Below, piece after piece: positions 1 through 39,784 of a stretch of 64,000 nt of DNA (position 1 is the first letter of the stretch; each line of letters starts with the position of its first letter). Origin of the DNA: Eledone cirrhosa (lineage: Eukaryota). A program made the position numbers and the translations under genes. Location of the stretch: assembly GCA_964016885.1 (NCBI GenBank), contig OZ024752.1, positions 43,400,001 through 43,464,000 on the forward strand. Direction: 5' to 3'. Below the pieces are notes generated by a model. The model was not told the origin of the DNA. It saw only the letters and a list, made by a program, of their open reading frames with translations, and did not search any database.

Positions 1-127
1 TTTACAAAGTGCTGTGATCAAAGTAGCTTTTAAGCAATTTCCTAACTAACAAACAACATCAACAAAATATATACAAATATCTTTGAATGTCAAGTCCACC
101 AAGAGAAAATAGTCATAATGTACTTAC

Positions 128-182
128 AGATACAATGCTAGGGACTCGCATCAATGAGTTTTAGTAGAAAATGACTGACTGA
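128..182 (-). other. Candidate exon C (55 nt) (every unit)
   Basis: Acceptor CTCTGTCCCTCAACAG, followed by further tandem CAGs, and donor TCT|GTAAGTA. Confidence 0.5.
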
Positions 183-441
183 CTGTTGAGGGACAGAGGT
201 GTGTTTTCAAATATTTATCAATTCACAACAAAGCCTCACAAAGCTACATCATAATGCAAACTCACAACACCCTTCTTATGCAACCTCACCAAGCAACCCC
301 ACAACACAACCTCACGTTCACAATTCACAACACTCAACAAGGCATTCGTTATCTAGGGTTTACAGTAAACATAGCGAGGTAAAACACACCCAGTACACTC
401 TGTAAAGTGGTCATTAGGTTAAGATTAAACTGAAATCATAC

Positions 442-519
442 CTCCATTGTCGTTGGCGTATATTTTCTCTAAAACTTAATTTCATTGCTTTCATTTCTAT
501 TCTTTTTCTTCTATTCCAT
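442..519 (-). other. Candidate exon B (78 nt, purine-rich) (every unit)
   Basis: Acceptor TTTTTTTCATATTTAG and donor GAG|GTATGA. One frame is open (WNRRKRIEMKAMKLSFRENIRQRQW). Confidence 0.55.
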
Positions 520-568
520 CTAAATATGAAAAAAATTATACAGGTCATTTCGTCTTATCAAGAGGTCC

Positions 569-602
<34 letters not shown>

Positions 603-613
603 CGAGATAATAC

Positions 614-688
614 CTTAAAATAATGGTAAAAAAAGTGTTTAATTACGAAAATCCTTTGAAATAACTTCCTCGCTCTTACTGGTCATAC
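614..688 (-). other. Candidate exon A (75 nt) of a spliced minus-strand cassette (every unit)
   Basis: Acceptor TGTTTTGTGTTTTGCAG and donor AAG|GTATTA. Stops occur in all three frames. Confidence 0.5.
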
Positions 689-723
689 CTGCAAAACACA
701 AAACACTAGGGTTACAGTGAAAA

Positions 724-756
724 GTGCAGTGCAGTGCAGTGCAGTGCAGTGCAGTG
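724..756. repeat. (GTGCA)n pentanucleotide microsatellite, copy number variable between units
   Basis: Read directly from the sequence; longer in units 5-8, shortest in unit 11. Confidence 0.95.
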
Positions 757-861
757 TAATTTAGTATGGTGCAGTTTAGTGGCACAGTACACTGTAAAAC
801 ATTTAGCCAATCTCTCAGACATTTACAAATCTTTCAAGATATATATATATATATATATATA

Positions 862-1350
862 TGGGAGAGAGAGAAATTACCCTCAGTAGATCAGACAGAG
901 GGACCAGCTATTGAGATTAACGAATATAGGGTCCAAGAGGCGATTAAGGAAATGAAAAATGGTGAGGCTGCTGGACCATCGGAGATAGTTGCTGAGATGC
1001 TGAAGGCCTCAGGGGACGTAGGCACTAAACTGGTTGCACACATCATCAATCAGGCTATATATGGCAGTGTCATACCCAAAGACTAGTGCAAAAGTAAAGG
1101 GGACGCTCTTGAGAGGAGAAATTATAGGGATATAAAACTGATGGATCAGGTTATGAAAGTGGCAGAAAGGATATTAGCACAACTAATTAGAGAAAGGGTC
1201 AAACTAGATGAGATGCAGTTTGGTTTTGTGCCTGGGAATAGTACAACAGATGCCCTCTTCTTGATGAGACAATTACAAGAGAGGTTCTTAGAGAAAAATA
1301 AGCCACTATACTTAGCCTTTGTTGACCTAGAGAAGGCCTTTGATAGGGGT
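862..1350 (+). mobile_element. RTE-clade LINE remnant, RT N-terminal part (present in every unit)
   Basis: Translates WEREKLPSVDQTEGPAI...AIKEMKNGEAAGPSEIVAEMLK...KGDALERRNYRGIKLMDQVMKV...QFGFVPGNSTTDA...LYLAFVDLEKAFDR. These are non-LTR RT motifs. There is a stop at 1084 with a deletion, and the match ends before YADD. Confidence 0.93.
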
Positions 1351-1527
1351 ACCCCGATCTGTCATCTTATTATTTAACCTATAAATGGGGCCCTAACAGG
1401 TACTACTACACCAGGCCAGAGCAGATCTGGGAGTTATGACAACTAAGGGGGTAACTCCACGTTCCCCACAGTTCCTCCTGAACTTGAGCCTTGCCACTGG
1501 ATGTAGTTTAATGTCATACCCAGGACA
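1351..1527 (+). mobile_element. SINE-like interspersed repeat fragment interrupting the RT (every unit)
   Basis: Non-RT sequence ccctaacaggtactac...gacctgggagt...gtttaatgtcatacccaggaca runs into (TA)n. A short related motif occurs at ~41620. Confidence 0.55.
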
Positions 1528-1599
1528 AATATATACATACATATATATATACATACACACATATATATATATATATATACATATATACAAATATATATA

Positions 1600-2069
1600 T
1601 GCGTACGAAAGTGTGGTTACATGATGCCTATGCGAGATGTGCGACCCTGCATGGTAGTGAGACATGGACAGCAACTGCAGAGGGTATGCGATGGCTGGAG
1701 AGAAATGAAGCAAGCACGCTCCGTTGGATGTGCAATGTCAATGTGCGGGAACGACCAAGCATAAACGAGTTGAGAGAGAAACTGTGTTTAAGAGGGATAA
1801 GTTGTGGTGTGCAAGAGGGGACTGAGATGGTATGGACATGTGATGCGCATGGAGGTTGAGCGCTGGGTAAAGAAGGGAGACGCAGTAGAGGAAGACCACG
1901 AAAAACATGGGTGGAGGTGGTGAGAGCCGACTTCAGATCGCTGAAACTCACCAAGGAGATGACGAAGGACCGTGACAAGTGAAGAGATGCTTTGCTCAAG
2001 AGGACCTGTCCCACCCTTTCAAGCAGGGAAAAGCGGACGTAAAATGATGAACAGACGATGATAATGATG
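1600..2069 (+). mobile_element. RTE-clade LINE C-terminus and 3' tail (every unit)
   Basis: LHGSETW...LERNEASTLRWMC...ELREKL...RGRPRKTWVEVVRADF, followed by a short 3' UTR ending in a (GAT)n-like tail typical of RTE elements. Confidence 0.88.
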
Positions 2070-2142
2070 CTCTCTATATATCTATCTCTCTATCAATCTA
2101 TCCAGATATCTGTGCATCAGTCTATCTATTTACCTATAAACA

Positions 2143-2393
2143 CCCTCCTCACTCCGTCTCAGGATCACCGAGACATCACCAACAACCAACCCACGCTGTG
2201 GGAAACAGTCCTCCCCGGGGCACACCCTGGTACTTCACACCATCTGTCTGTCTCGCTGCCTAACTACCGAGAAATCCGGCTTCTGTGCTTGCCTAATTTG
2301 TAGGTTATTAGGCAGTTGGCAGGTTTGCGGAAGTTGGTTTTGCAAATGGTTAAAACACTTGCATCACAAAATTCAAATAGCATCACTCCTTGT
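2143..2393 (-). mobile_element. Inverted RTE APE-endonuclease fragment (every unit)
   Basis: The reverse complement reads LFEFCDASVLTICKTNFRKPANCLITYKLGKH...RQRDRQMV...CPGEDCFPQRGLVVGDV. It is ~80% identical by hand alignment to 2664-2857. Confidence 0.9.
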
Positions 2394-2399
2394 TTTATC

Positions 2400-2518
2400 T
2401 TTCTCGTCTTTACCTAGGCCTGCATAAGTTAGTGTTACGGTTAGTGTTACTGTTAGCGTTACGGCTAGTTTTAGGGTTAATTGAGAGCAAGAAACTGCTG
2501 CTAGGTAAAGACAAGAAA
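2400..2518. mobile_element. Small inverted-repeat (MITE-like) element with degenerate TTAGGG-like hexamers (every unit)
   Basis: tttctcgtctttacctag (2400-2417) pairs with ctaggtaaagacaagaaa (2501-2518) at 17/18 positions. The interior reads TTAGTG TTACGG TTAGTG TTACTG TTAGCG TTACGG CTAGTT TTAGGG. Confidence 0.6.
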
Positions 2519-2559
2519 TTCTGCATTTACAAGCAATTTTTACAAACAGCCACAATGAC

Positions 2560-3345
2560 AGGACGGAGACATCGTTATGCTAGCAGGGGATTTCAATGGT
2601 CATGTTGGACAGCTCTACGATGGTTACACTGAGGTACATGTTGGGCACACTTACGGCTTAAGAAATGAAGCAGTGAAACTTCTTGAATTTTGCGATGCAA
2701 TTGCACTAACCATCTACAACACTAACTTACACAAATCTGCCAACCACCTAATAACCTACAAATCAGGCAAGCACATAAGCCAGATTGACTTCTTGCTAGT
2801 TAGGCAGCGGGACAGGCAGATGGTGTCAAATACAAAGGCATACCCCGGGGAAGAATGTACCCCAAGCAAGAGACTGAATGAGACATACAGGAAGGTGTGG
2901 AAAAAAGAAAGGTCTGGAAGCTAAAAGAGCTCTCACTAAAATACAAATTTAGGAAAGCCCTTCAATATGTGTATGATGAAAAAGAAGACGATTTAGAGTC
3001 GTACAACATAGATGATAACTGGAATTTCTTATGCGATACCTTACTGCAGGTTACTGATGAAACTTGTGGCTGGATCAGAGTTCCAACCAGACAGAGAGTG
3101 ACATGGTGGTGGGACAGCACGGTAGATCGGGCCATTGGAGACTAAAGACTAGCATGGAATGCTTGCAAAATTAGTGCGAGTAGAGAAGAATATACAGCCG
3201 CTAAGAGAGAAGCTAGACGTCAGGTGTACTTAGCATGCAAGGAGGCTGCTCGACGACGTGCGCTGTTCCGTACTGCAAGGCAGTGTGTCAGTGCAAATCG
3301 GGATTAAGTCTGTCCGCAATGATGCCGCTGTACTTTGTGTCACGA
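2560..3345 (+). mobile_element. RTE-clade LINE remnant, APE endonuclease and linker (every unit)
   Basis: MLAGDFNGHVG...LLEFC...ITYKSG...SQIDFLLVR, then RKVWKLK...TWWWDSTVDRAI...EYTAAKREARRQVYLA...VRNDAAVLCV. Frameshifts and stops are present. Confidence 0.93.
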
Positions 3346-3387
3346 ATGAGTGTTGATGAGTAGAAAAGAGGACAAAACTCTATTCCG

Positions 3388-3600
3388 TCAGGGAAATGGC
3401 CATGTTCGATATGCAGAAACGGAACTGGCATAAATTATATAAAACGTACGCAAAAGATCGAGTGCGATAGCAGGCACGTAGTGGGATAGCAGGCAAACTA
3501 ACAGCATATTTTGATTATAATAAAACAAATAATAATAGTAATAATAATAATAATCGTCATTGTTCTTTTCTTCTGTGCCTTTCTTTGCCTTCTCTGTCAT
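3388..3600 (-). other. Candidate exon D (3' end undefined; 3388 is the stop of its open frame)
   Basis: Strong acceptor TTCTTTTTTCTTTTTATTTTTGTTATTCAG|ATGACAGAG, 175 nt downstream of the exon C donor at 3775. Confidence 0.5.
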
Positions 3601-6600
3601 CTGAATAACAAAAATAAAAAGAAAAAAGAATCTTAAACATATGTTGCCTTTACAAAGTGCTGTGATCAAAGTAGCTTTTAAGCAATTTCCTAACTAACAA
3701 ACAACATCAACAAAATATATACAAATATCTTTGAATGTCAAGTCCACCAAGAGAAAATAGTCATAATGTACTTACAGATACAATGCTAGGGACTCGCATC
3801 AATGAGTTTTAGTAGAAAATGACTGACTGACTGTTGAGGGACAGAGGTGTGTTTTCAAATATTTATCAATTCACAACAAAGCCTCACAAAGCTACATCAT
3901 AATGCAAACTCACAACACCCTTCTTATGCAACCTCACCAAGCAACCCCACAACCCCACAACACAACCTCACGTTCACAATTCACAACACTCAACAAGGCA
4001 TTCGTTATCTAGGGTTTACAGTAAACATAGCGAGGTAAAACACACCCAGTACACTCTGTAAAGTGGTCATTAGGTTAAGATTAAACTGAAATCATACCTC
4101 CATTGTCGTTGGCGTATATTTTCTCTAAAACTTAATTTCATTGCTTTCATTTCTATTCTTTTTCTTCTATTCCATCTAAATATGAAAAAAATTATACAGG
4201 TCATTTCGTCTTATCAAGAGGTCCATTTAAAAAAAAAAAAAAAACCCGAGATAATACCTTAAAATAATGGTAAAAAAAGTGTTTAATTACGAAAATCCTT
4301 TGAAATAACTTCCTCGCTCTTACTGGTCATACCTGCAAAACACAAAACACTAGGGTTACAGTGAAAAGTGCAGTGCAGTGCAGTGCAGTGCAGTGCAGTG
4401 TAATTTAGTATGGTGCAGTTTAGTGGCACAGTACACTGTAAAACATTTAGCCAATCTCTCAGACATTTACAAATCTTTCAAGATATATATATATATATAT
4501 ATATATGGGAGAGAGAGAAATTACCCTCAGTAGATCAGACAGAGGGACCAGCTATTGAGATTAACGAATATAGGGTCCAAGAGGCGATTAAGGAAATGAA
4601 AAATGGTGAGGCTGCTGGACCATCGGAGATAGTTGCTGAGATGCTGAAGGCCTCAGGGGACGTAGGCACTAAACTGGTTGCACACATCATCAATCAGGCT
4701 ATATATGGCAGTGTCATACCCAAAGACTAGTGCAAAAGTAAAGGGGACGCTCTTGAGAGGAGAAATTATAGGGATATAAAACTGATGGATCAGGTTATGA
4801 AAGTGGCAGAAAGGATATTAGCACAACTAATTAGAGAAAGGGTCAAACTAGATGAGATGCAGTTTGGTTTTGTGCCTGGGAATAGTACAACAGATGCCCT
4901 CTTCTTGATGAGACAATTACAAGAGAGGTTCTTAGAGAAAAATAAGCCACTATACTTAGCCTTTGTTGACCTAGAGAAGGCCTTTGATAGGGGTACCCCG
5001 ATCTGTCATCTTATTATTTAACCTATAAATGGGGCCCTAACAGGTACTACTACACCAGGCCAGAGCAGATCTGGGAGTTATGACAACTAAGGGGGTAACT
5101 CCACGTTCCCCACAGTTCCTCCTGAACTTGAGCCTTGCCACTGGATGTAGTTTAATGTCATACCCAGGACAAATATATACATACATATATATATACATAC
5201 ACACATATATATATATATATATACATATATACAAATATATATATGCGTACGAAAGTGTGGTTACATGATGCCTATGCGAGATGTGCGACCCTGCATGGTA
5301 GTGAGACATGGACAGCAACTGCAGAGGGTATGCGATGGCTGGAGAGAAATGAAGCAAGCACGCTCCGTTGGATGTGCAATGTCAATGTGCGGGAACGACC
5401 AAGCATAAACGAGTTGAGAGAGAAACTGTGTTTAAGAGGGATAAGTTGTGGTGTGCAAGAGGGGACTGAGATGGTATGGACATGTGATGCGCATGGAGGT
5501 TGAGCGCTGGGTAAAGAAGGGAGACGCAGTAGAGGAAGACCACGAAAAACATGGGTGGAGGTGGTGAGAGCCGACTTCAGATCGCTGAAACTCACCAAGG
5601 AGATGACGAAGGACCGTGACAAGTGAAGAGATGCTTTGCTCAAGAGGACCTGTCCCACCCTTTCAAGCAGGGAAAAGCGGACGTAAAATGATGAACAGAC
5701 GATGATAATGATGCTCTCTATATATCTATCTCTCTATCAATCTATCCAGATATCTGTGCATCAGTCTATCTATTTACCTATAAACACCCTCCTCACTCCG
5801 TCTCAGGATCACCGAGACATCACCAACAACCAACCCACGCTGTGGGAAACAGTCCTCCCCGGGGCACACCCTGGTACTTCACACCATCTGTCTGTCTCGC
5901 TGCCTAACTACCGAGAAATCCGGCTTCTGTGCTTGCCTAATTTGTAGGTTATTAGGCAGTTGGCAGGTTTGCGGAAGTTGGTTTTGCAAATGGTTAAAAC
6001 ACTTGCATCACAAAATTCAAATAGCATCACTCCTTGTTTTATCTTTCTCGTCTTTACCTAGGCCTGCATAAGTTAGTGTTACGGTTAGTGTTACTGTTAG
6101 CGTTACGGCTAGTTTTAGGGTTAATTGAGAGCAAGAAACTGCTGCTAGGTAAAGACAAGAAATTCTGCATTTACAAGCAATTTTTACAAACAGCCACAAT
6201 GACAGGACGGAGACATCGTTATGCTAGCAGGGGATTTCAATGGTCATGTTGGACAGCTCTACGATGGTTACACTGAGGTACATGTTGGGCACACTTACGG
6301 CTTAAGAAATGAAGCAGTGAAACTTCTTGAATTTTGCGATGCAATTGCACTAACCATCTACAACACTAACTTACACAAATCTGCCAACCACCTAATAACC
6401 TACAAATCAGGCAAGCACATAAGCCAGATTGACTTCTTGCTAGTTAGGCAGCGGGACAGGCAGATGGTGTCAAATACAAAGGCATACCCCGGGGAAGAAT
6501 GTACCCCAAGCAAGAGACTGAATGAGACATACAGGAAGGTGTGGAAAAAAGAAAGGTCTGGAAGCTAAAAGAGCTCTCACTAAAATACAAATTTAGGAAA

Positions 6601-9600
6601 GCCCTTCAATATGTGTATGATGAAAAAGAAGACGATTTAGAGTCGTACAACATAGATGATAACTGGAATTTCTTATGCGATACCTTACTGCAGGTTACTG
6701 ATGAAACTTGTGGCTGGATCAGAGTTCCAACCAGACAGAGAGTGACATGGTGGTGGGACAGCACGGTAGATCGGGCCATTGGAGACTAAAGACTAGCATG
6801 GAATGCTTGCAAAATTAGTGCGAGTAGAGAAGAATATACAGCCGCTAAGAGAGAAGCTAGACGTCAGGTGTACTTAGCATGCAAGGAGGCTGCTCGACGA
6901 CGTGCGCTGTTCCGTACTGCAAGGCAGTGTGTCAGTGCAAATCGGGATTAAGTCTGTCCGCAATGATGCCGCTGTACTTTGTGTCACGAATGAGTGTTGA
7001 TGAGTAGAAAAGAGGACAAAACTCTATTCCGTCAGGGAAATGGCCATGTTCGATATGCAGAAACGGAACTGGCATAAATTATATAAAACGTACGCAAAAG
7101 ATCGAGTGCGATAGCAGGCACGTAGTGGGATAGCAGGCAAACTAACAGCATATTTTGATTATAATAAAACAAATAATAATAGTAATAATAATAATAATCG
7201 TCATTGTTCTTTTCTTCTGTGCCTTTCTTTGCCTTCTCTGTCATCTGAATAACAAAAATAAAAAGAAAAAAGAATCTTAAACATATGTTGCCTTTACAAA
7301 GTGCTGTGATCAAAGTAGCTTTTAAGCAATTTCCTAACTAACAAACAACATCAACAAAATATATACAAATATCTTTGAATGTCAAGTCCACCAAGAGAAA
7401 ATAGTCATAATGTACTTACAGATACAATGCTAGGGACTCGCATCAATGAGTTTTAGTAGAAAATGACTGACTGACTGTTGAGGGACAGAGGTGTGTTTTC
7501 AAATATTTATCAATTCACAACAAAGCCTCACAAAGCTACATCATAATGCAAACTCACAACACCCTTCTTATGCAACCTCACCAAGCAACCCCACAACACA
7601 ACCTCACGTTCACAATTCACAACACTCAACAAGGCATTCGTTATCTAGGGTTTACAGTAAACATAGCGAGGTAAAACACACCCAGTACACTCTGTAAAGT
7701 GGTCATTAGGTTAAGATTAAACTGAAATCATACCTCCATTGTCGTTGGCGTATATTTTCTCTAAAACTTAATTTCATTGCTTTCATTTCTATTCTTTTTC
7801 TTCTATTCCATCTAAATATGAAAAAAATTATACAGGTCATTTCGTCTTATCAAGAGGTCCATTTAAAAAAAAAAAAAAAACCCGAGATAATACCTTAAAA
7901 TAATGGTAAAAAAAGTGTTTAATTACGAAAATCCTTTGAAATAACTTCCTCGCTCTTACTGGTCATACCTGCAAAACACAAAACACTAGGGTTACAGTGA
8001 AAAGTGCAGTGCAGTGCAGTGCAGTGCAGTGCAGTGTAATTTAGTATGGTGCAGTTTAGTGGCACAGTACACTGTAAAACATTTAGCCAATCTCTCAGAC
8101 ATTTACAAATCTTTCAAGATATATATATATATATATATATATGGGAGAGAGAGAAATTACCCTCAGTAGATCAGACAGAGGGACCAGCTATTGAGATTAA
8201 CGAATATAGGGTCCAAGAGGCGATTAAGGAAATGAAAAATGGTGAGGCTGCTGGACCATCGGAGATAGTTGCTGAGATGCTGAAGGCCTCAGGGGACGTA
8301 GGCACTAAACTGGTTGCACACATCATCAATCAGGCTATATATGGCAGTGTCATACCCAAAGACTAGTGCAAAAGTAAAGGGGACGCTCTTGAGAGGAGAA
8401 ATTATAGGGATATAAAACTGATGGATCAGGTTATGAAAGTGGCAGAAAGGATATTAGCACAACTAATTAGAGAAAGGGTCAAACTAGATGAGATGCAGTT
8501 TGGTTTTGTGCCTGGGAATAGTACAACAGATGCCCTCTTCTTGATGAGACAATTACAAGAGAGGTTCTTAGAGAAAAATAAGCCACTATACTTAGCCTTT
8601 GTTGACCTAGAGAAGGCCTTTGATAGGGGTACCCCGATCTGTCATCTTATTATTTAACCTATAAATGGGGCCCTAACAGGTACTACTACACCAGGCCAGA
8701 GCAGATCTGGGAGTTATGACAACTAAGGGGGTAACTCCACGTTCCCCACAGTTCCTCCTGAACTTGAGCCTTGCCACTGGATGTAGTTTAATGTCATACC
8801 CAGGACAAATATATACATACATATATATATACATACACACATATATATATATATATATACATATATACAAATATATATATGCGTACGAAAGTGTGGTTAC
8901 ATGATGCCTATGCGAGATGTGCGACCCTGCATGGTAGTGAGACATGGACAGCAACTGCAGAGGGTATGCGATGGCTGGAGAGAAATGAAGCAAGCACGCT
9001 CCGTTGGATGTGCAATGTCAATGTGCGGGAACGACCAAGCATAAACGAGTTGAGAGAGAAACTGTGTTTAAGAGGGATAAGTTGTGGTGTGCAAGAGGGG
9101 ACTGAGATGGTATGGACATGTGATGCGCATGGAGGTTGAGCGCTGGGTAAAGAAGGGAGACGCAGTAGAGGAAGACCACGAAAAACATGGGTGGAGGTGG
9201 TGAGAGCCGACTTCAGATCGCTGAAACTCACCAAGGAGATGACGAAGGACCGTGACAAGTGAAGAGATGCTTTGCTCAAGAGGACCTGTCCCACCCTTTC
9301 AAGCAGGGAAAAGCGGACGTAAAATGATGAACAGACGATGATAATGATGCTCTCTATATATCTATCTCTCTATCAATCTATCCAGATATCTGTGCATCAG
9401 TCTATCTATTTACCTATAAACACCCTCCTCACTCCGTCTCAGGATCACCGAGACATCACCAACAACCAACCCACGCTGTGGGAAACAGTCCTCCCCGGGG
9501 CACACCCTGGTACTTCACACCATCTGTCTGTCTCGCTGCCTAACTACCGAGAAATCCGGCTTCTGTGCTTGCCTAATTTGTAGGTTATTAGGCAGTTGGC

Positions 9601-12600
9601 AGGTTTGCGGAAGTTGGTTTTGCAAATGGTTAAAACACTTGCATCACAAAATTCAAATAGCATCACTCCTTGTTTTATCTTTCTCGTCTTTACCTAGGCC
9701 TGCATAAGTTAGTGTTACGGTTAGTGTTACTGTTAGCGTTACGGCTAGTTTTAGGGTTAATTGAGAGCAAGAAACTGCTGCTAGGTAAAGACAAGAAATT
9801 CTGCATTTACAAGCAATTTTTACAAACAGCCACAATGACAGGACGGAGACATCGTTATGCTAGCAGGGGATTTCAATGGTCATGTTGGACAGCTCTACGA
9901 TGGTTACACTGAGGTACATGTTGGGCACACTTACGGCTTAAGAAATGAAGCAGTGAAACTTCTTGAATTTTGCGATGCAATTGCACTAACCATCTACAAC
10001 ACTAACTTACACAAATCTGCCAACCACCTAATAACCTACAAATCAGGCAAGCACATAAGCCAGATTGACTTCTTGCTAGTTAGGCAGCGGGACAGGCAGA
10101 TGGTGTCAAATACAAAGGCATACCCCGGGGAAGAATGTACCCCAAGCAAGAGACTGAATGAGACATACAGGAAGGTGTGGAAAAAAGAAAGGTCTGGAAG
10201 CTAAAAGAGCTCTCACTAAAATACAAATTTAGGAAAGCCCTTCAATATGTGTATGATGAAAAAGAAGACGATTTAGAGTCGTACAACATAGATGATAACT
10301 GGAATTTCTTATGCGATACCTTACTGCAGGTTACTGATGAAACTTGTGGCTGGATCAGAGTTCCAACCAGACAGAGAGTGACATGGTGGTGGGACAGCAC
10401 GGTAGATCGGGCCATTGGAGACTAAAGACTAGCATGGAATGCTTGCAAAATTAGTGCGAGTAGAGAAGAATATACAGCCGCTAAGAGAGAAGCTAGACGT
10501 CAGGTGTACTTAGCATGCAAGGAGGCTGCTCGACGACGTGCGCTGTTCCGTACTGCAAGGCAGTGTGTCAGTGCAAATCGGGATTAAGTCTGTCCGCAAT
10601 GATGCCGCTGTACTTTGTGTCACGAATGAGTGTTGATGAGTAGAAAAGAGGACAAAACTCTATTCCGTCAGGGAAATGGCCATGTTCGATATGCAGAAAC
10701 GGAACTGGCATAAATTATATAAAACGTACGCAAAAGATCGAGTGCGATAGCAGGCACGTAGTGGGATAGCAGGCAAACTAACAGCATATTTTGATTATAA
10801 TAAAACAAATAATAATAGTAATAATAATAATAATCGTCATTGTTCTTTTCTTCTGTGCCTTTCTTTGCCTTCTCTGTCATCTGAATAACAAAAATAAAAA
10901 GAAAAAAGAATCTTAAACATATGTTGCCTTTACAAAGTGCTGTGATCAAAGTAGCTTTTAAGCAATTTCCTAACTAACAAACAACATCAACAAAATATAT
11001 ACAAATATCTTTGAATGTCAAGTCCACCAAGAGAAAATAGTCATAATGTACTTACAGATACAATGCTAGGGACTCGCATCAATGAGTTTTAGTAGAAAAT
11101 GACTGACTGACTGTTGAGGGACAGAGGTGTGTTTTCAAATATTTATCAATTCACAACAAAGCCTCACAAAGCTACATCATAATGCAAACTCACAACACCC
11201 TTCTTATGCAACCTCACCAAGCAACCCCACAACACAACCTCACGTTCACAATTCACAACACTCAACAAGGCATTCGTTATCTAGGGTTTACAGTAAACAT
11301 AGCGAGGTAAAACACACCCAGTACACTCTGTAAAGTGGTCATTAGGTTAAGATTAAACTGAAATCATACCTCCATTGTCGTTGGCGTATATTTTCTCTAA
11401 AACTTAATTTCATTGCTTTCATTTCTATTCTTTTTCTTCTATTCCATCTAAATATGAAAAAAATTATACAGGTCATTTCGTCTTATCAAGAGGTCCATTT
11501 AAAAAAAAAAAAAAAACCCGAGATAATACCTTAAAATAATGGTAAAAAAAGTGTTTAATTACGAAAATCCTTTGAAATAACTTCCTCGCTCTTACTGGTC
11601 ATACCTGCAAAACACAAAACACTAGGGTTACAGTGAAAAGTGCAGTGCAGTGCAGTGCAGTGCAGTGCAGTGTAATTTAGTATGGTGCAGTTTAGTGGCA
11701 CAGTACACTGTAAAACATTTAGCCAATCTCTCAGACATTTACAAATCTTTCAAGATATATATATATATATATATATATGGGAGAGAGAGAAATTACCCTC
11801 AGTAGATCAGACAGAGGGACCAGCTATTGAGATTAACGAATATAGGGTCCAAGAGGCGATTAAGGAAATGAAAAATGGTGAGGCTGCTGGACCATCGGAG
11901 ATAGTTGCTGAGATGCTGAAGGCCTCAGGGGACGTAGGCACTAAACTGGTTGCACACATCATCAATCAGGCTATATATGGCAGTGTCATACCCAAAGACT
12001 AGTGCAAAAGTAAAGGGGACGCTCTTGAGAGGAGAAATTATAGGGATATAAAACTGATGGATCAGGTTATGAAAGTGGCAGAAAGGATATTAGCACAACT
12101 AATTAGAGAAAGGGTCAAACTAGATGAGATGCAGTTTGGTTTTGTGCCTGGGAATAGTACAACAGATGCCCTCTTCTTGATGAGACAATTACAAGAGAGG
12201 TTCTTAGAGAAAAATAAGCCACTATACTTAGCCTTTGTTGACCTAGAGAAGGCCTTTGATAGGGGTACCCCGATCTGTCATCTTATTATTTAACCTATAA
12301 ATGGGGCCCTAACAGGTACTACTACACCAGGCCAGAGCAGATCTGGGAGTTATGACAACTAAGGGGGTAACTCCACGTTCCCCACAGTTCCTCCTGAACT
12401 TGAGCCTTGCCACTGGATGTAGTTTAATGTCATACCCAGGACAAATATATACATACATATATATATACATACACACATATATATATATATATATACATAT
12501 ATACAAATATATATATGCGTACGAAAGTGTGGTTACATGATGCCTATGCGAGATGTGCGACCCTGCATGGTAGTGAGACATGGACAGCAACTGCAGAGGG

Positions 12601-15140: not shown

Positions 15141-15177
<37 letters not shown>

Positions 15178-18100: not shown

Positions 18101-18801
18101 TATAATAAAACAAATAATAATAGTAATAATAATAATAATCGTCATTGTTCTTTTCTTCTGTGCCTTTCTTTGCCTTCTCTGTCATCTGAATAACAAAAAT
18201 AAAAAGAAAAAAGAATCTTAAACATATGTTGCCTTTACAAAGTGCTGTGATCAAAGTAGCTTTTAAGCAATTTCCTAACTAACAAACAACATCAACAAAA
18301 TATATACAAATATCTTTGAATGTCAAGTCCACCAAGAGAAAATAGTCATAATGTACTTACAGATACAATGCTAGGGACTCGCATCAATGAGTTTTAGTAG
18401 AAAATGACTGACTGACTGTTGAGGGACAGAGGTGTGTTTTCAAATATTTATCAATTCACAACAAAGCCTCACAAAGCTACATCATAATGCAAACTCACAA
18501 CACCCTTCTTATGCAACCTCACCAAGCAACCCCACAACACAACCTCACGTTCACAATTCACAACACTCAACAAGGCATTCATTATCTAGGGTTTACAGTA
18601 AACATAGCGAGGTAAAACACACCCAGTACACTCTGTAAAGTGGTCATTAGGTTAAGATTAAACTGAAATCATACCTCCATTGTCGTTGGCGTATATTTTC
18701 TCTAAAACTTAATTTCATTGCTTTCATTTCTATTCTTTTTCTTCTATTCCATCTAAATATGAAAAAAATTATACAGGTCATTTCGTCTTATCAAGAGGTC
18801 C

Positions 18802-18839
<38 letters not shown>

Positions 18840-29750: not shown

Positions 29751-29788
<38 letters not shown>

Positions 29789-32700
29789 CGAGATAATACC
29801 TTAAAATAATGGTAAAAAAAGTGTTTAATTACGAAAATCCTTTGAAATAACTTCCTCGCTCTTACTGGTCATACCTGCAAAACACAAAACACTAGGGTTA
29901 CAGTGAAAAGTGCAGTGCAGTGCAGTGCAGTGCAGTGCAGTGTAATTTAGTATGGTGCAGTTTAGTGGCACAGTACACTGTAAAACATTTAGCCAATCTC
30001 TCAGACATTTACAAATCTTTCAAGATATATATATATATATATATATATGGGAGAGAGAGAAATTACCCTCAGTAGATCAGACAGAGGGACCAGCTATTGA
30101 GATTAACGAATATAGGGTCCAAGAGGCGATTAAGGAAATGAAAAATGGTGAGGCTGCTGGACCATCGGAGATAGTTGCTGAGATGCTGAAGGCCTCAGGG
30201 GACGTAGGCACTAAACTGGTTGCACACATCATCAATCAGGCTATATATGGCAGTGTCATACCCAAAGACTAGTGCAAAAGTAAAGGGGACGCTCTTGAGA
30301 GGAGAAATTATAGGGATATAAAACTGATGGATCAGGTTATGAAAGTGGCAGAAAGGATATTAGCACAACTAATTAGAGAAAGGGTCAAACTAGATGAGAT
30401 GCAGTTTGGTTTTGTGCCTGGGAATAGTACAACAGATGCCCTCTTCTTGATGAGACAATTACAAGAGAGGTTCTTAGAGAAAAATAAGCCACTATACTTA
30501 GCCTTTGTTGACCTAGAGAAGGCCTTTGATAGGGGTACCCCGATCTGTCATCTTATTATTTAACCTATAAATGGGGCCCTAACAGGTACTACTACACCAG
30601 GCCAGAGCAGACCTGGGAGTTATGACAACTAAGGGGGTAACTCCACGTTCCCCACAGTTCCTCCTGAACTTGAGCCTTGCCACTGGATGTAGTTTAATGT
30701 CATACCCAGGACAAATATATACATACATATATATATACATACACACATATATATATATATATACATATATACAAATATATATATGCGTACGAAAGTGTGG
30801 TTACATGATGCCTATGCGAGATGTGCGACCCTGCATGGTAGTGAGACATGGACAGCAACTGCAGAGGGTATGCGATGGCTGGAGAGAAATGAAGCAAGCA
30901 CGCTCCGTTGGATGTGCAATGTCAATGTGCGGGAACGACCAAGCATAAACGAGTTGAGAGAGAAACTGTGTTTAAGAGGGATAAGTTGTGGTGTGCAAGA
31001 GGGGACTGAGATGGTATGGACATGTGATGCGCATGGAGGTTGAGCGCTGGGTAAAGGGAGACGCAGTAGAGGAAGACCACGAAAAACATGGGTGGAGGTG
31101 GTGAGAGCCGACTTCAGATCGCTGAAACTCACCAAGGAGATGACGAAGGACCGTGACAAGTGAAGAGATGCTTTGCTCAAGAGGACCTGTCCCACCCTTT
31201 CAAGCAGGGAAAAGCGGACGTAAAATGATGAACAGACGATGATAATGATGCTCTCTATATATCTATCTCTCTATCAATCTATCCAGATATCTGTGCATCA
31301 GTCTATCTATTTACCTATAAACACCCTCCTCACTCCGTCTCAGGATCACCGAGACATCACCAACAACCAACCCACGCTGTGGGAAACAGTCCTCCCCGGG
31401 GCACACCCTGGTACTTCACACCATCTGTCTGTCTCGCTGCCTAACTACCGAGAAATCCGGCTTCTGTGCTTGCCTAATTTGTAGGTTATTAGGCAGTTGG
31501 CAGGTTTGCGGAAGTTGGTTTTGCAAATGGTTAAAACACTTGCATCACAAAATTCAAATAGCATCACTCCTTGTTTTATCTTTCTCGTCTTTACCTAGGC
31601 CTGCATAAGTTAGTGTTACGGTTAGTGTTACTGTTAGCGTTACGGCTAGTTTTAGGGTTAATTGAGAGCAAGAAACTGCTGCTAGGTAAAGACAAGAAAT
31701 TCTGCATTTACAAGCAATTTTTACAAACAGCCACAATGACAGGACGGAGACATCGTTATGCTAGCAGGGGATTTCAATGGTCATGTTGGACAGCTCTACG
31801 ATGGTTACACTGAGGTACATGTTGGGCACACTTACGGCTTAAGAAATGAAGCAGTGAAACTTCTTGAATTTTGCGATGCAATTGCACTAACCATCTACAA
31901 CACTAACTTACACAAATCTGCCAACCACCTAATAACCTACAAATCAGGCAAGCACATAAGCCAGATTGACTTCTTGCTAGTTAGGCAGCGGGACAGGCAG
32001 ATGGTGTCAAATACAAAGGCATACCCCGGGGAAGAATGTACCCCAAGCAAGAGACTGAATGAGACATACAGGAAGGTGTGGAAAAAAGAAAGGTCTGGAA
32101 GCTAAAAGAGCTCTCACTAAAATACAAATTTAGGAAAGCCCTTCAATATGTGTATGATGAAAAAGAAGACGATTTAGAGTCGTACAACATAGATGATAAC
32201 TGGAATTTCTTATGCGATACCTTACTGCAGGTTACTGATGAAACTTGTGGCTGGATCAGAGTTCCAACCAGACAGAGAGTGACATGGTGGTGGGACAGCA
32301 CGGTAGATCGGGCCATTGGAGACTAAAGACTAGCATGGAATGCTTGCAAAATTAGTGCGAGTAGAGAAGAATATACAGCCGCTAAGAGAGAAGCTAGACG
32401 TCAGGTGTACTTAGCATGCAAGGAGGCTGCTCGACGACGTGCGCTGTTCCGTACTGCAAGGCAGTGTGTCAGTGCAAATCGGGATTAAGTCTGTCCGCAA
32501 TGATGCCGCTGTACTTTGTGTCACGAATGAGTGTTGATGAGTAGAAAAGAGGACAAAACTCTATTCCGTCAGGGAAATGGCCATGTTCGATATGCAGAAA
32601 CGGAACTGGCATAAATTATATAAAACGTACACAAAAGATCGAGTGCGATAGCAGGCACGTAGTGGGATAGCAGGCAAACTAACAGCATATTTTGATTATA

Positions 32701-35700
32701 ATAAAACAAATAATAATAGTAATAATAATAATAATAATCGTCATTGTTCTTTTCTTCTGTGCCTTTCTTTGCCTTCTCTGTCATCTGAATAACAAAAATA
32801 AAAGAAAAAAGAATCTTAAACATATGTTGCCTTTACAAAGTGCTGTGATCAAAGTAGCTTTTAAGCAATTTCCTAACTAACAAACAACATCAACAAAATA
32901 TATACAAATATCTTTGAATGTCAAGTCCACCAAGAGAAAATAGTCATAATGTACTTACAGATACAATGCTAGGGACTCGCATCAATGAGTTTTAGTAGAA
33001 AATGACTGACTGACTGTTGAGGGACAGAGGTGTGTTTTCAAATATTTATCAATTCACAACAAAGCCTCACAAAGCTACATCATAATGCAAACTCACAACA
33101 CCCTTCTTATGCAACCTCACCAAGCAACCCCACAACCCCACAACACAACCTCACGTTCACAATTCACAACACTCAACAAGGCATTCGTTATCTAGGGTTT
33201 ACAGTAAACATAGCGAGGTAAAACACACCCAGTACACTCTGTAAAGTGGTCATTAGGTTAAGATTAAACTGAAATCATACCTCCATTGTCGTTGGCGTAT
33301 ATTTTCTCTAAAACTTAATTTCATTGCTTTCATTTCTATTCTTTTTCTTCTATTCCATCTAAATATGAAAAAAATTATACAGGTCATTTCGTCTTATCAA
33401 GAGGTCCATTTAAAAAAAAAAAAAAAACCCGAGATAATACCTTAAAATAATGGTAAAAAAAGTGTTTAATTACGAAAATCCTTTGAAATAACTTCCTCGC
33501 TCTTACTGGTCATACCTGCAAAACACAAAACACTAGGGTTACAGTGAAAAGTGCAGTGCAGTGCAGTGCAGTGCAGTGCAGTGTAATTTAGTATGGTGCA
33601 GTTTAGTGGCACAGTACACTGTAAAACATTTAGCCAATCTCTCAGACATTTACAAATCTTTCAAGATATATATATATATATATATATATGGGAGAGAGAG
33701 AAATTACCCTCAGTAGATCAGACAGAGGGACCAGCTATTGAGATTAACGAATATAGGGTCCAAGAGGCGATTAAGGAAATGAAAAATGGTGAGGCTGCTG
33801 GACCATCGGAGATAGTTGCTGAGATGCTGAAGGCCTCAGGGGACGTAGGCACTAAACTGGTTGCACACATCATCAATCAGGCTATATATGGCAGTGTCAT
33901 ACCCAAAGACTAGTGCAAAAGTAAAGGGGACGCTCTTGAGAGGAGAAATTATAGGGATATAAAACTGATGGATCAGGTTATGAAAGTGGCAGAAAGGATA
34001 TTAGCACAACTAATTAGAGAAAGGGTCAAACTAGATGAGATGCAGTTTGGTTTTGTGCCTGGGAATAGTACAACAGATGCCCTCTTCTTGATGAGACAAT
34101 TACAAGAGAGGTTCTTAGAGAAAAATAAGCCACTATACTTAGCCTTTGTTGACCTAGAGAAGGCCTTTGATAGGGGTACCCCGATCTGTCATCTTATTAT
34201 TTAACCTATAAATGGGGCCCTAACAGGTACTACTACACCAGGCCAGAGCAGACCTGGGAGTTATGACAACTAAGGGGGTAACTCCACGTTCCCCACAGTT
34301 CCTCCTGAACTTGAGCCTTGCCACTGGATGTAGTTTAATGTCATACCCAGGACAAATATATACATACATATATATATACATACACACATATATATATATA
34401 TATACATATATACAAATATATATATGCGTACGAAAGTGTGGTTACATGATGCCTATGCGAGATGTGCGACCCTGCATGGTAGTGAGACATGGACAGCAAC
34501 TGCAGAGGGTATGCGATGGCTGGAGAGAAATGAAGCAAGCACGCTCCGTTGGATGTGCAATGTCAATGTGCGGGAACGACCAAGCATAAACGAGTTGAGA
34601 GAGAAACTGTGTTTAAGAGGGATAAGTTGTGGTGTGCAAGAGGGGACTGAGATGGTATGGACATGTGATGCGCATGGAGGTTGAGCGCTGGGTAAAGGGA
34701 GACGCAGTAGAGGAAGACCACGAAAAACATGGGTGGAGGTGGTGAGAGCCGACTTCAGATCGCTGAAACTCACCAAGGAGATGACGAAGGACCGTGACAA
34801 GTGAAGAGATGCTTTGCTCAAGAGGACCTGTCCCACCCTTTCAAGCAGGGAAAAGCGGACGTAAAATGATGAACAGACGATGATAATGATGCTCTCTATA
34901 TATCTATCTCTCTATCAATCTATCCAGATATCTGTGCATCAGTCTATCTATTTACCTATAAACACCCTCCTCACTCCGTCTCAGGATCACCGAGACATCA
35001 CCAACAACCAACCCACGCTGTGGGAAACAGTCCTCCCCGGGGCACACCCTGGTACTTCACACCATCTGTCTGTCTCGCTGCCTAACTACCGAGAAATCCG
35101 GCTTCTGTGCTTGCCTAATTTGTAGGTTATTAGGCAGTTGGCAGGTTTGCGGAAGTTGGTTTTGCAAATGGTTAAAACACTTGCATCACAAAATTCAAAT
35201 AGCATCACTCCTTGTTTTATCTTTCTCGTCTTTACCTAGGCCTGCATAAGTTAGTGTTACGGTTAGTGTTACTGTTAGCGTTACGGCTAGTTTTAGGGTT
35301 AATTGAGAGCAAGAAACTGCTGCTAGGTAAAGACAAGAAATTCTGCATTTACAAGCAATTTTTACAAACAGCCACAATGACAGGACGGAGACATCGTTAT
35401 GCTAGCAGGGGATTTCAATGGTCATGTTGGACAGCTCTACGATGGTTACACTGAGGTACATGTTGGGCACACTTACGGCTTAAGAAATGAAGCAGTGAAA
35501 CTTCTTGAATTTTGCGATGCAATTGCACTAACCATCTACAACACTAACTTACACAAATCTGCCAACCACCTAATAACCTACAAATCAGGCAAGCACATAA
35601 GCCAGATTGACTTCTTGCTAGTTAGGCAGCGGGACAGGCAGATGGTGTCAAATACAAAGGCATACCCCGGGGAAGAATGTACCCCAAGCAAGAGACTGAA

Positions 35701-38700
35701 TGAGACATACAGGAAGGTGTGGAAAAAAGAAAGGTCTGGAAGCTAAAAGAGCTCTCACTAAAATACAAATTTAGGAAAGCCCTTCAATATGTGTATGATG
35801 AAAAAGAAGACGATTTAGAGTCGTACAACATAGATGATAACTGGAATTTCTTATGCGATACCTTACTGCAGGTTACTGATGAAACTTGTGGCTGGATCAG
35901 AGTTCCAACCAGACAGAGAGTGACATGGTGGTGGGACAGCACGGTAGATCGGGCCATTGGAGACTAAAGACTAGCATGGAATGCTTGCAAAATTAGTGCG
36001 AGTAGAGAAGAATATACAGCCGCTAAGAGAGAAGCTAGACGTCAGGTGTACTTAGCATGCAAGGAGGCTGCTCGACGACGTGCGCTGTTCCGTACTGCAA
36101 GGCAGTGTGTCAGTGCAAATCGGGATTAAGTCTGTCCGCAATGATGCCGCTGTACTTTGTGTCACGAATGAGTGTTGATGAGTAGAAAAGAGGACAAAAC
36201 TCTATTCCGTCAGGGAAATGGCCATGTTCGATATGCAGAAACGGAACTGGCATAAATTATATAAAACGTACACAAAAGATCGAGTGCGATAGCAGGCACG
36301 TAGTGGGATAGCAGGCAAACTAACAGCATATTTTGATTATAATAAAACAAATAATAATAGTAATAATAATAATAATAATCGTCATTGTTCTTTTCTTCTG
36401 TGCCTTTCTTTGCCTTCTCTGTCATCTGAATAACAAAAATAAAAGAAAAAAGAATCTTAAACATATGTTGCCTTTACAAAGTGCTGTGATCAAAGTAGCT
36501 TTTAAGCAATTTCCTAACTAACAAACAACATCAACAAAATATATACAAATATCTTTGAATGTCAAGTCCACCAAGAGAAAATAGTCATAATGTACTTACA
36601 GATACAATGCTAGGGACTCGCATCAATGAGTTTTAGTAGAAAATGACTGACTGACTGTTGAGGGACAGAGGTGTGTTTTCAAATATTTATCAATTCACAA
36701 CAAAGCCTCACAAAGCTACATCATAATGCAAACTCACAACACCCTTCTTATGCAACCTCACCAAGCAACCCCACAACCCCACAACACAACCTCACGTTCA
36801 CAATTCACAACACTCAACAAGGCATTCGTTATCTAGGGTTTACAGTAAACATAGCGAGGTAAAACACACCCAGTACACTCTGTAAAGTGGTCATTAGGTT
36901 AAGATTAAACTGAAATCATACCTCCATTGTCGTTGGCGTATATTTTCTCTAAAACTTAATTTCATTGCTTTCATTTCTATTCTTTTTCTTCTATTCCATC
37001 TAAATATGAAAAAAATTATACAGGTCATTTCGTCTTATCAAGAGGTCCATTTAAAAAAAAAAAAAAAACCCGAGATAATACCTTAAAATAATGGTAAAAA
37101 AAGTGTTTAATTACGAAAATCCTTTGAAATAACTTCCTCGCTCTTACTGGTCATACCTGCAAAACACAAAACACTAGGGTTACAGTGAAAAGTGCAGTGC
37201 AGTGCAGTGCAGTGCAGTGTAATTTAGTATGGTGCAGTTTAGTGGCACAGTACACTGTAAAACATTTAGCCAATCTCTCAGACATTTACAAATCTTTCAA
37301 GATATATATATATATATATATATATGGGAGAGAGAGAAATTACCCTCAGTAGATCAGACAGAGGGACCAGCTATTGAGATTAACGAATATAGGGTCCAAG
37401 AGGCGATTAAGGAAATGAAAAATGGTGAGGCTGCTGGACCATCGGAGATAGTTGCTGAGATGCTGAAGGCCTCAGGGGACGTAGGCACTAAACTGGTTGC
37501 ACACATCATCAATCAGGCTATATATGGCAGTGTCATACCCAAAGACTAGTGCAAAAGTAAAGGGGACGCTCTTGAGAGGAGAAATTATAGGGATATAAAA
37601 CTGATGGATCAGGTTATGAAAGTGGCAGAAAGGATATTAGCACAACTAATTAGAGAAAGGGTCAAACTAGATGAGATGCAGTTTGGTTTTGTGCCTGGGA
37701 ATAGTACAACAGATGCCCTCTTCTTGATGAGACAATTACAAGAGAGGTTCTTAGAGAAAAATAAGCCACTATACTTAGCCTTTGTTGACCTAGAGAAGGC
37801 CTTTGATAGGGGTACCCCGATCTGTCATCTTATTATTTAACCTATAAATGGGGCCCTAACAGGTACTACTACACCAGGCCAGAGCAGACCTGGGAGTTAT
37901 GACAACTAAGGGGGTAACTCCACGTTCCCCACAGTTCCTCCTGAACTTGAGCCTTGCCACTGGATGTAGTTTAATGTCATACCCAGGACAAATATATACA
38001 TACATATATATATACATACACACATATATATATATATATACATATATACAAATATATATATGCGTACGAAAGTGTGGTTACATGATGCCTATGCGAGATG
38101 TGCGACCCTGCATGGTAGTGAGACATGGACAGCAACTGCAGAGGGTATGCGATGGCTGGAGAGAAATGAAGCAAGCACGCTCCGTTGGATGTGCAATGTC
38201 AATGTGCGGGAACGACCAAGCATAAACGAGTTGAGAGAGAAACTGTGTTTAAGAGGGATAAGTTGTGGTGTGCAAGAGGGGACTGAGATGGTATGGACAT
38301 GTGATGCGCATGGAGGTTGAGCGCTGGGTAAAGAAGGGAGACGCAGTAGAGGAAGACCACGAAAAACATGGGTGGAGGTGGTGAGAGCCGACTTCAGATC
38401 GCTGAAACTCACCAAGGAGATGACGAAGGACCGTGACAAGTGAAGAGATGCTTTGCTCAAGAGGACCTGTCCCACCCTTTCAAGCAGGGAAAAGCGGACG
38501 TAAAATGATGAACAGACGATGATAATGATGCTCTCTATATATCTATCTCTCTATCAATCTATCCAGATATCTGTGCATCAGTCTATCTATTTACCTATAA
38601 ACACCCTCCTCACTCCGTCTCAGGATCACCGAGACATCACCAACAACCAACCCACGCTGTGGGAAACAGTCCTCCCCGGGGCACACCCTGGTACTTCACA

Positions 38701-39784
38701 CCATCTGTCTGTCTCGCTGCCTAACTACCGAGAAATCCGGCTTCTGTGCTTGCCTAATTTGTAGGTTATTAGGCAGTTGGCAGGTTTGCGGAAGTTGGTT
38801 TTGCAAATGGTTAAAACACTTGCATCACAAAATTCAAATAGCATCACTCCTTGTTTTATCTTTCTCGTCTTTACCTAGGCCTGCATAAGTTAGTGTTACG
38901 GTTAGTGTTACTGTTAGCGTTACGGCTAGTTTTAGGGTTAATTGAGAACAAGAAACTGCTGCTAGGTAAAGACAAGAAATTCTGCATTTACAAGCAATTT
39001 TTACAAACAGCCACAATGACAGGACGGAGACATCGTTATGCTAGCAGGGGATTTCAATGGTCATGTTGGACAGCTCTACGATGGTTACACTGAGGTACAT
39101 GTTGGGCACACTTACGGCTTAAGAAATGAAGCAGTGAAACTTCTTGAATTTTGCGATGCAATTGCACTAACCATCTACAACACTAACTTACACAAATCTG
39201 CCAACCACCTAATAACCTACAAATCAGGCAAGCACATAAGCCAGATTGACTTCTTGCTAGTTAGGCAGCGGGACAGGCAGATGGTGTCAAATACAAAGGC
39301 ATACCCCGGGGAAGAATGTACCCCAAGCAAGAGACTGAATGAGACATACAGGAAGGTGTGGAAAAAAGAAAGGTCTGGAAGCTAAAAGAGCTCTCACTAA
39401 AATACAAATTTAGGAAAGCCCTTCAATATGTGTATGATGAAAAAGAAGACGATTTAGAGTCGTACAACATAGATGATAACTGGAATTTCTTATGCGATAC
39501 CTTACTGCAGGTTACTGATGAAACTTGTGGCTGGATCAGAGTTCCAACCAGACAGAGAGTGACATGGTGGTGGGACAGCACGGTAGATCGGGCCATTGGA
39601 GACTAAAGACTAGCATGGAATGCTTGCAAAATTAGTGCGAGTAGAGAAGAATATACAGCCGCTAAGAGAGAAGCTAGACGTCAGGTGTACTTAGCACGCA
39701 AGGAGGCTGCTCGACGACGTGCGCTGTTCCGTACTGCGAGGCAGTGTGTCAGTGCAAATCGGGATTAAGTCTGTCCGCAATGAT

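What the first reader, a model, noticed from the sequence alone, without database searches (positions are those of the whole stretch)
1..39784. Homogeneous 3.64-kb macrosatellite built from a dead RTE LINE, an exon cassette and a fold-back module
Seen: at least 11 head-to-tail units are almost identical, yet their LINE parts are heavily decayed (stops, frameshifts, no YADD). Amplification or homogenisation therefore came long after the element died and happened at the DNA level. Inference: arrays this uniform often carry something dosage-relevant, or act as heterochromatin, centromere or small-RNA source loci. I recognise no standard cargo (rDNA, snRNA, histone, tRNA), so the exon cassette and hairpin are the candidate cargo.
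Basis: partly seen in the sequence, partly recalled or inferred. Interest (0 to 1): 0.75.

Follow-up and report, generated by a model that had tools for sequence, protein, structure and literature searches.

The report
Chromosome-end array of transposon scraps
This is a real tandem repeat patched together from dead jumping-gene fragments that sits a few tens of kilobases inside a telomere tract at 19 or more places in this genome, always facing the same way; it was likely spread by swapping between chromosome ends, carries no recognisable gene, and likely gives a spliced non-coding RNA whose use, if any, is untested.

Summary
The array is real: 11 cassette-bearing units of 3,636-3,669 bp, 0.09% mean substitution difference, starting only 2 kb before the window. 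It is part of a subtelomeric block: a telomere tract lies 38.5 kb upstream, behind a scaffold gap. About 168 units sit in 22 short arrays, and 19 of the 21 arrays checked lie 33-49 kb from a telomere tract with one polarity. Between ends the flanks are as alike as the units (0-1.4%), so uniformity belongs to the whole block and is no sign of selected cargo. The unit is debris: LINE pieces (no YADD), two opposed endonuclease fragments (the fold-back), and a relic of exons carried by a giant 8-bp-TSD Merlin transposon family. Ends with zero, one old, or many cassettes coexist. One public contig set, probably RNA, joins the cassette at an exact GT-AG intron absent from a DNA run, pointing toward the telomere; no conserved reading frame was found. 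Best reading: a D4Z4-like subtelomeric macrosatellite without a gene, spread by exchange between ends, probably neutral, with passenger splicing.

The parts
1..39784 (.). Tandem array, 11 cassette-bearing units of about 3.64 kb; true start 2,017 bp before the window (G000:C12:43,397,984); telomere tract ends 38.5 kb upstream of that, next to a 200-N gap
7148..7985 (-). Cassette X (one example unit): internally deleted relic of the exon-intron cargo of a giant Merlin-type DNA transposon family; about 320 bp of intron (7383-7700) is not in the Merlin copies
   Evidence: collinear alignment, 484 of 579 aligned columns identical; blast hits in 3 of 3 full elements
7245..7733 (-). Intron 1, GT-AG on the minus strand, 489 nt
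   Evidence: joint 7244->7734 in run X4 (depth 262.5), 0 in run X1
7734..7811 (-). Exon b, 78 nt; no frame is open through the neighbouring exons
7812..7948 (-). Second skipped stretch: canonical AG acceptor, donor read as GA (unresolved); the ancestral GT donor lies at 7926/7927
   Evidence: joint 7811->7949 in X4 (depth 490), 0 in X1; no GT variant at that donor in the assembly
7927..7968 (-). Exon a homologue; deleted in the 3.34-kb short variant at other ends; use of its acceptor not seen
7035..7244 (-). 70-aa chimeric open frame (Merlin-cargo half plus antisense LINE half); no Pfam match; truncated in the two old copies
8141..8647 (+). LINE reverse-transcriptase N-terminal piece, 90% to a near-intact dispersed copy, stops before YADD
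   Evidence: RVT_1 E=8e-9 on the unit-2 equivalent
8880..9343 (+). LINE C-terminal piece and 3' tail, 81% to the same reference
9479..9671 (-). Fold-back arm 1: antisense LINE endonuclease fragment from another copy
9948..10144 (+). Fold-back arm 2: sense LINE endonuclease fragment, 79% to arm 1; the spacer holds a small inverted repeat (z about -3)
   Evidence: (Exo_endo_phos_2 E=0.01, below cut-off)
6605..7148 (+). LINE linker (77.5%) and a short RT piece (85%) that abut the cassette
39785..40069 (+). Array end: short duplication plus another LINE RT fragment (segment y), present at the proximal end of most blocks
40070..40982 (+). Segment B: 93-94% paralogue of unit positions 652-1551; the template state seen alone at zero-cassette ends
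40983..50000 (.). Centromere-side flank shared with other ends (with C9 to 46,127; with C15 to about 50,000)

Best explanation
The array is a tandem repeat of transposon debris inside a duplicated block that lies next to telomere tracts at many places in this genome, and it was likely spread and kept uniform by exchange between chromosome ends and by unequal crossing-over, probably without a selected cargo. Shown: block order telomere, 33-49 kb of shared sequence, array, shared flank; same breakpoints and polarity; 0, 1 or 3 to about 16 cassettes per block. Inferred history: a block with LINE segments A-y-B took in cassette X by ectopic recombination at the shared exon-a/B homology, giving A-X-B'-A-y-B (old single-cassette copies, 93-96% alike); the direct repeat of A then let unit number grow; the block was copied between ends very recently (0-1.4% divergence). 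The relic splice sites are likely still used when the arrays are transcribed toward the telomere, giving a non-coding RNA with a built-in 195-bp imperfect hairpin. The internal position on C12 is likely a scaffolding placement of a chromosome-end contig.
For: Telomere tract of 695 units after a 200-N gap, 38.5 kb upstream. The same block starts C9 and C10 right after their terminal telomeres. Two independent unit markers each give 168 exact hits. Telomere tracts found distal to 19 of 21 multi-unit arrays checked; the 2 misses end at a scaffold start or gap. All 5 internal tracts whose far end was fetched abut a 200-N gap. Flank substitutions against C12 are 0-0.65% (7 ends, telomere side) and 0-1.4% (10 ends, proximal side); unit substitutions are 0.05-1.4% (11 ends). 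Within-locus divergence is below between-locus divergence in all 6 segments tested, and variants are shared in patchwork among ends. Zero-cassette blocks at 4 loci; old single-cassette blocks at C3 and C1; an X-B block without A at C15. Cassette donor family: paired inverted ends mostly 22-60 kb apart, GG termini, 8-bp target duplications in 6 of 7 assessable elements, DDE_Tnp_IS1595 hits 0.4-0.8 kb inside such ends (9 hits, read across). GT-AG joint in X4, absent in X1.
Against: Neutrality is argued from lack of constraint, and divergence is too low (about 0.3% in the cassette) for a strong test. The block has reached many ends recently, which drift and exchange can explain but selection could too. 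Splice sites are unchanged in all copies read (48-49 each), as expected by chance at this divergence but also under selection. Two zero-cassette blocks (C1 at 438.0 Mb, C3 at 5.25 Mb) had no telomere tract in the stretches fetched. X4 has no library type on record and is one sample; its contigs match variants of the C7/C14 type rather than the C12 haplotype, so transcription of this very array is not shown. The cassette may share a host source with the Merlin cargo rather than descend from it: no end of that family was found in the block.
Confidence: 0.72

Rival explanations
1. The array is a functional subtelomeric chromatin module: its telomere-directed spliced RNA, with the 195-bp hairpin as a source of double-stranded or small RNA, helps silence or cluster chromosome ends, in proportion to unit number.
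For: Fixed polarity toward the telomere; exact splice joint in X4; very stable fold-back in every unit; D4Z4 and yeast subTERRA give precedent (PMC3002039 and PMC7374410, passages).
Against: Polarity follows from copying a whole block; ends without the cassette exist and 2 of them carry telomeres; unit number runs from 0 to about 16; X4 shows the same spectrum of differences as the DNA run (A>G 31 vs 28, T>C 19 vs 16), so no sign of editing.
Confidence: 0.15
2. The internal copies, this one included, are real interstitial sites (end-to-end fusions or insertions of a telomere-capped block) and not scaffolding placements.
For: 13 of 22 telomere-bearing blocks lie inside scaffolds; C1499 starts with opposed telomere tracts.
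Against: 5 of 5 internal tracts whose far end was fetched abut a 200-N gap; the tracts are multi-kb and nearly pure like the terminal ones.
Confidence: 0.06
3. The units carry a dosage-relevant micro-protein (the 70-72-aa frame that begins at the spliced acceptor).
For: The frame is open in 62 of 64 copies read.
Against: The copies are under 1% apart; the two remaining copies, one of them the old C1 cassette, are cut to 32 and 36 aa; the frame is a chimera with a microsatellite Tyr run; no Pfam match.
Confidence: 0.04
4. Centromeric satellite, or an assembly artefact of one or two real copies.
For: Very high unit identity.
Against: Units carry shared diagnostic variants, and each end has its own haplotypes; the window has no gap; array-specific contigs in X1 have depth 2,770-3,130 against 751 for a marker with 78 assembled copies, a ratio of about 3.7 against 2.2 in the assembly (rough, the tool warns depth is no copy number). 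Arrays are only about 10-60 kb and sit at both ends of C13.
Confidence: 0.03

Closest known systems
Human D4Z4 macrosatellite at 4q35/10q26 (PMC3002039, passages)
   Same: Multi-kb unit (3.3 kb there, 3.34-3.7 kb here), subtelomeric, variable unit number, shared between non-homologous ends at about 98% or more, homology reaching tens of kb on both sides.
   Different: D4Z4 holds the DUX4 double-homeobox frame and has two main arrays of 11-150 units; here no gene, about 41% GC, and 22 arrays of 3 to about 16 units.
Human subtelomeric pseudo-homolog regions under concerted evolution (bioRxiv 10.64898/2026.07.10.737660, abstract and outline)
   Same: Blocks shared by many chromosome ends, mosaic sharing of variants, ectopic exchange as the likely cause.
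   Different: Here one block type with one inner macrosatellite covers the ends examined, and zero-, one- and many-cassette states coexist in one assembly; exchange itself was not observed.
Subtelomeric lncRNAs transcribed toward the telomere, such as yeast subTERRA-XUT; TERRA (PMC7374410, passages)
   Same: Non-coding, from repeated subtelomeric DNA, telomere-directed.
   Different: The source lies 33-49 kb from the telomere and is spliced; no evidence that it reaches the telomeric repeats, so it is not shown to be TERRA.
Merlin DNA transposons (PMC8101967, passages)
   Same: The cassette's donor family has GG termini, 8-bp target duplications, an IS1595-type transposase and internal tandem repeats.
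   Different: Donor elements are mostly 22-60 kb and full of nested retroelements and decayed exons; the array itself holds only an end-less relic.

Membership tests
Subtelomeric segmental duplication with macrosatellite | Near a telomere tract | tested here: met
   19 of 21 multi-unit arrays checked, 33-49 kb
Subtelomeric segmental duplication with macrosatellite | Shared at high identity by non-homologous ends, flanks included | tested here: met
   0-1.4% substitutions in flanks and units; shared breakpoints
Subtelomeric segmental duplication with macrosatellite | Multi-kb head-to-tail units with variable number | tested here: met
Subtelomeric segmental duplication with macrosatellite | Physical location at chromosome ends | tested here: inconclusive
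   9 blocks are terminal in their scaffolds; 13 lie inside, 5 of 5 checked behind a gap; no FISH or long reads
D4Z4/DUX4 | Conserved coding frame (homeobox) in each unit | tested here: not met
   only LINE domains in Pfam; stops in all three frames across the joints
TERRA | Transcript runs into telomeric repeats from a promoter close to the telomere | not testable with these tools
   only contigs available; array is 33-49 kb away
Merlin (donor family of the cassette) | Inverted ends beginning GG | tested here: met
   both ends in 7 of 8 pairs, left end only in the eighth
Merlin (donor family of the cassette) | 8-9-bp target duplication | tested here: met
   8 bp in 6 of 7 assessable (one in an AT run), 7 bp in one
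Merlin (donor family of the cassette) | DDE_Tnp_IS1595 transposase | tested here: met
   9 hits 0.4-0.8 kb inside listed ends; not seen as an open frame in the 3 full elements read
Merlin (the array unit itself) | Inverted ends and transposase in the unit or block | tested here: not met
   no end within 4 mismatches of 22 in block, unit or flank
RTE-clade LINE | Endonuclease plus reverse transcriptase in one frame with YADD | tested here: not met
   pieces only, YADD region absent
RTE-clade LINE | Clade placement by RT phylogeny | not tested
Centromeric satellite | CENP-A binding, one large array per chromosome | not testable with these tools
   array sizes and two-ended C13 argue against

The most novel reading that the evidence does not exclude
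A transposon-born splice cassette has been turned into a subtelomeric RNA system in an octopus-like genome: some twenty chromosome ends carry an expandable array that makes a telomere-directed spliced RNA with a built-in long hairpin (and possibly a GA-AG intron), tuning end chromatin by unit number, a D4Z4 analogue without a protein, caught with its zero-, one- and many-copy stages in one genome.
Probability: 0.12. Interest if true: 0.72.

Novelty: new member of a known kind. Interest (0 to 1): 0.42.

Why it matters
It gives a concrete map of a probably cephalopod subtelomere; two searches (listings only) turned up no such description. It shows step by step how a macrosatellite can be born from transposon debris and spread over many ends. 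It offers a marker for chromosome ends that flags 13 telomere-bearing contigs placed inside scaffolds. If the RNA proved functional it would be a protein-free counterpart of D4Z4. The giant Merlin family found on the way may deserve its own study.

Tried and rejected
No RNA holder was listed for the unit; X4's kind is my inference. X5 (organism B) held one 567-nt near-identical piece at depth 2; it may be carry-over and was not used. Rfam: 11 weak matches, all below gathering scores, mostly AT microsatellite. The homeodomain-like word in exon b gave no Pfam match. A putative exon between b and d is skipped by the joint. An intact GT donor variant for the second joint was sought and not found. 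The donor family was first read as an LTR (pairs 7-8 kb apart) and then as Helentron/HINE-like (hairpins, telomere-like repeats; listing); both were dropped once inverted ends and 8-bp duplications appeared. No long open frame was found in the Merlin cargo's low-complexity exon; the longest was 354 aa, and most copies share a stop in exon b. No protein-atlas result exists for the 70-aa frame. Earlier notes of the scan: none near, none by sequence, none on the Merlin family. A search for giant Merlin cargo elements listed nothing relevant. Supplements of the papers were not opened and could hold repeat libraries naming these families.

Full report
Observation. The window opens with a head-to-tail array ending at 39,784. 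Ten full units of 3,636-3,669 bp and a partial one differ at 11 substitution columns and 8 indel sites; mean pairwise substitution is 0.09%. Units share variants in groups (1-4 identical in substitutions, 9-10 likewise), which fits real copies. The window has no N. The array begins 2,017 bp before the window.

Context. The window is G000:C12:43,400,001-43,464,000 of a 3.0-Gb assembly. Upstream lie 38.5 kb of sequence, then about 695 CCCTAA units, then a 200-N gap. The same 38-kb block follows the terminal telomeres of C9 and C10 at roughly 87-99.8% identity, lowest near the telomere. Two unit markers each have 168 exact hits (only the first 100 are listed). Junction markers list the loci (22 hits; 24 exact hits). 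I count 22 multi-unit arrays. For 21 I fetched the distal side: 19 have a telomere tract 33-49 kb away, and C8 and one C21 block end at a scaffold start or gap. C1499 was not resolved. Polarity is constant: plus at left ends, minus at right ends. Counting three zero- or single-cassette blocks too, 22 blocks carry telomeres; 9 are terminal and 13 internal, and all 5 internal tracts whose far end I fetched abut a gap. Six further blocks had no tract in the stretches fetched (C1 twice, C3 at 5.25 Mb, C8, C15, one C21 block). Unit numbers are 3-13 in the listed hits and about 16 on C19, estimated from marker spacing. The taxon (an octopus) comes from two earlier notes and my recall of its repeats; I did not test it.

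Is the uniformity special? No. Against C12, a 2-kb piece of the telomere-side flank differs by 0-0.65% (7 ends), the proximal flank by 0-1.4% (10 ends) and a 1.9-kb piece of the unit by 0.05-1.4% (11 ends). In six segments (60-75 copies from 20-26 loci) within-locus divergence is lower than between-locus divergence, and variants are shared among ends in a patchwork (some segments include the flank paralogues). This is what recent copying of a whole block plus local expansion gives. Read depth in a DNA run suggests the assembly under-counts units rather than inflating them (2,770-3,130 against 751 for a 78-copy marker), but the tool warns that depth is no copy number.

Anatomy. Against a near-intact dispersed LINE frame of 807 aa with YADD at 483, the unit holds aa 45-193, 232-401, 527-556 and 653-807 as separate pieces, 77-90% identical in DNA; Pfam finds RVT_1 and, weakly, the endonuclease. 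The fold-back is an antisense endonuclease fragment facing a sense one, 79% alike, folding far better than shuffles (z about -20). The cassette led, through a variant joint, to a dispersed family (78 hits). Its copies share ends that occur as inverted pairs mostly 22-60 kb apart, begin with GG and are flanked by 8-bp duplications in 6 of 7 assessable cases. IS1595-type transposase hits lie 0.4-0.8 kb inside such ends (9 cases read by eye across). These are the Merlin features stated in PMC8101967 (passages). The cassette aligns collinearly with three exons and two introns of this family's cargo, 84% over 579 aligned columns, with large deletions. No end of the family is in the block, so descent from the transposon is inferred; a shared host source is possible.

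History. Four loci have A-y-B and no cassette. C3 at 361.6 Mb and C1 at 1.2 Mb have one cassette at 93-96% with an insertion. C15 has cassette-B without A. A 3.34-kb variant lacking exon a occurs at C5, C6, C11, C18, C19, C24 and C58. The simplest order is capture of the cassette at the exon-a/B homology, which leaves A as a direct repeat, then expansion by unequal exchange and copying between ends. The order is inferred from structure and divergence; no tree was built.

RNA. In run X4 (87.8 million letters of contigs against 1,381 million for X1; kind not on record) two joints appear that are absent from X1: 7244->7734, an exact minus-strand GT-AG intron (depth 262.5), and 7811->7949, which uses the predicted acceptor but a donor read as GA (depth 490). 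A contig holding intron 1 unspliced has depth 75, and array-matching contigs elsewhere in the unit, the head-to-tail junction included, have 260-390. Exon b's donor side differs from the Merlin copies, so the first joint is array-type. The splice polarity points to the telomere. Limits: one sample, contigs only, and the haplotypes fit C7/C14-type arrays better than C12. The second joint did not reappear among the rows shown, where an unspliced contig crosses that donor, and no GT variant exists in the assembly; it stays unresolved. Model transcripts have stops in all frames across the joints; the 70-72-aa frame after the acceptor is chimeric, has no Pfam match and is cut short in 2 of 64 copies, the old C1 cassette among them.

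Comparison. The layout resembles D4Z4 (PMC3002039, passages) and the shared human ends described in bioRxiv 10.64898/2026.07.10.737660 (abstract and outline). It fails D4Z4's coding feature. It is not shown to be TERRA (PMC7374410, passages). A recent Octopus vulgaris repeat annotation lists recent Merlin and RTE families and has no occurrence of 'telomer' or 'satellite' in its main text (PMC13282606, passages). Searches for octopus or cephalopod subtelomeric repeats listed no description of such a block (listings only); supplements were not seen.

Verdict. A real subtelomeric macrosatellite of transposon debris, a new member of a known kind, probably neutral (0.72), with a functional-RNA reading at about 0.15. 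Interest 0.42, for the breadth across ends, the preserved stages of origin, the spliced telomere-directed RNA and the giant Merlin donor.

Noticed in passing
G000, e.g. C1:5,550,636-5,578,734; C1:72,240,579-72,267,247; C2:282,117,300-282,141,347: Giant Merlin-type DNA transposons, mostly 22-60 kb, 291 exact end hits, 8-bp target duplications, carrying a decayed multi-exon low-complexity cargo (acidic exons; Asn/Ala/Asp/Thr exon) that is often tandemly repeated inside the element, plus nested retroelements.
   Followed up: partly
G000:C12:43,355,158 and 12 other internal sites: Multi-kb telomere tracts inside scaffolds, next to 200-N gaps where checked: probably chromosome-end contigs placed internally.
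   Followed up: partly
G000:C12:43,361,761-43,376,956: A second, older tandem array of about 5.3 kb (85-98% identity) in the same subtelomeric block, with unit number varying between ends.
   Followed up: no
L011:3700-5600 (G000:C12:43,393,700-43,395,600): Decayed Helitron-like remnant with a PIF1 match (E=7e-8) on the telomere side of the array.
   Followed up: partly
window 7811->7949: High-depth joint whose donor reads GA, 22 nt from the ancestral GT donor, whose +5 base differs from the Merlin copies; possible non-canonical intron or tool artefact.
   Followed up: partly
G000:C15:1-8,800: Block with cassette joined directly to the flank, cut on the distal side by a different retroelement-like sequence.
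   Followed up: partly
G000:C1499:1-10,000: TTAGGG tract followed by CCCTAA tract at a scaffold start, with an array about 90 kb on: fusion signature or misjoin.
   Followed up: no
window-equivalent 9063-10476: Contigs of a second homogeneous high-copy LINE-derived variant (X1 depth about 3,700-3,800), perhaps another macrosatellite.
   Followed up: no
window 44,575-44,925: Weak Merlin-type transposase remnant (E about 3e-4) in the proximal flank.
   Followed up: partly
window 58,812-59,769; 55,806-56,017; 62,515-63,012: A 228-bp 97% inverted repeat, a 212-bp palindrome and a roughly 40-bp minisatellite.
   Followed up: no
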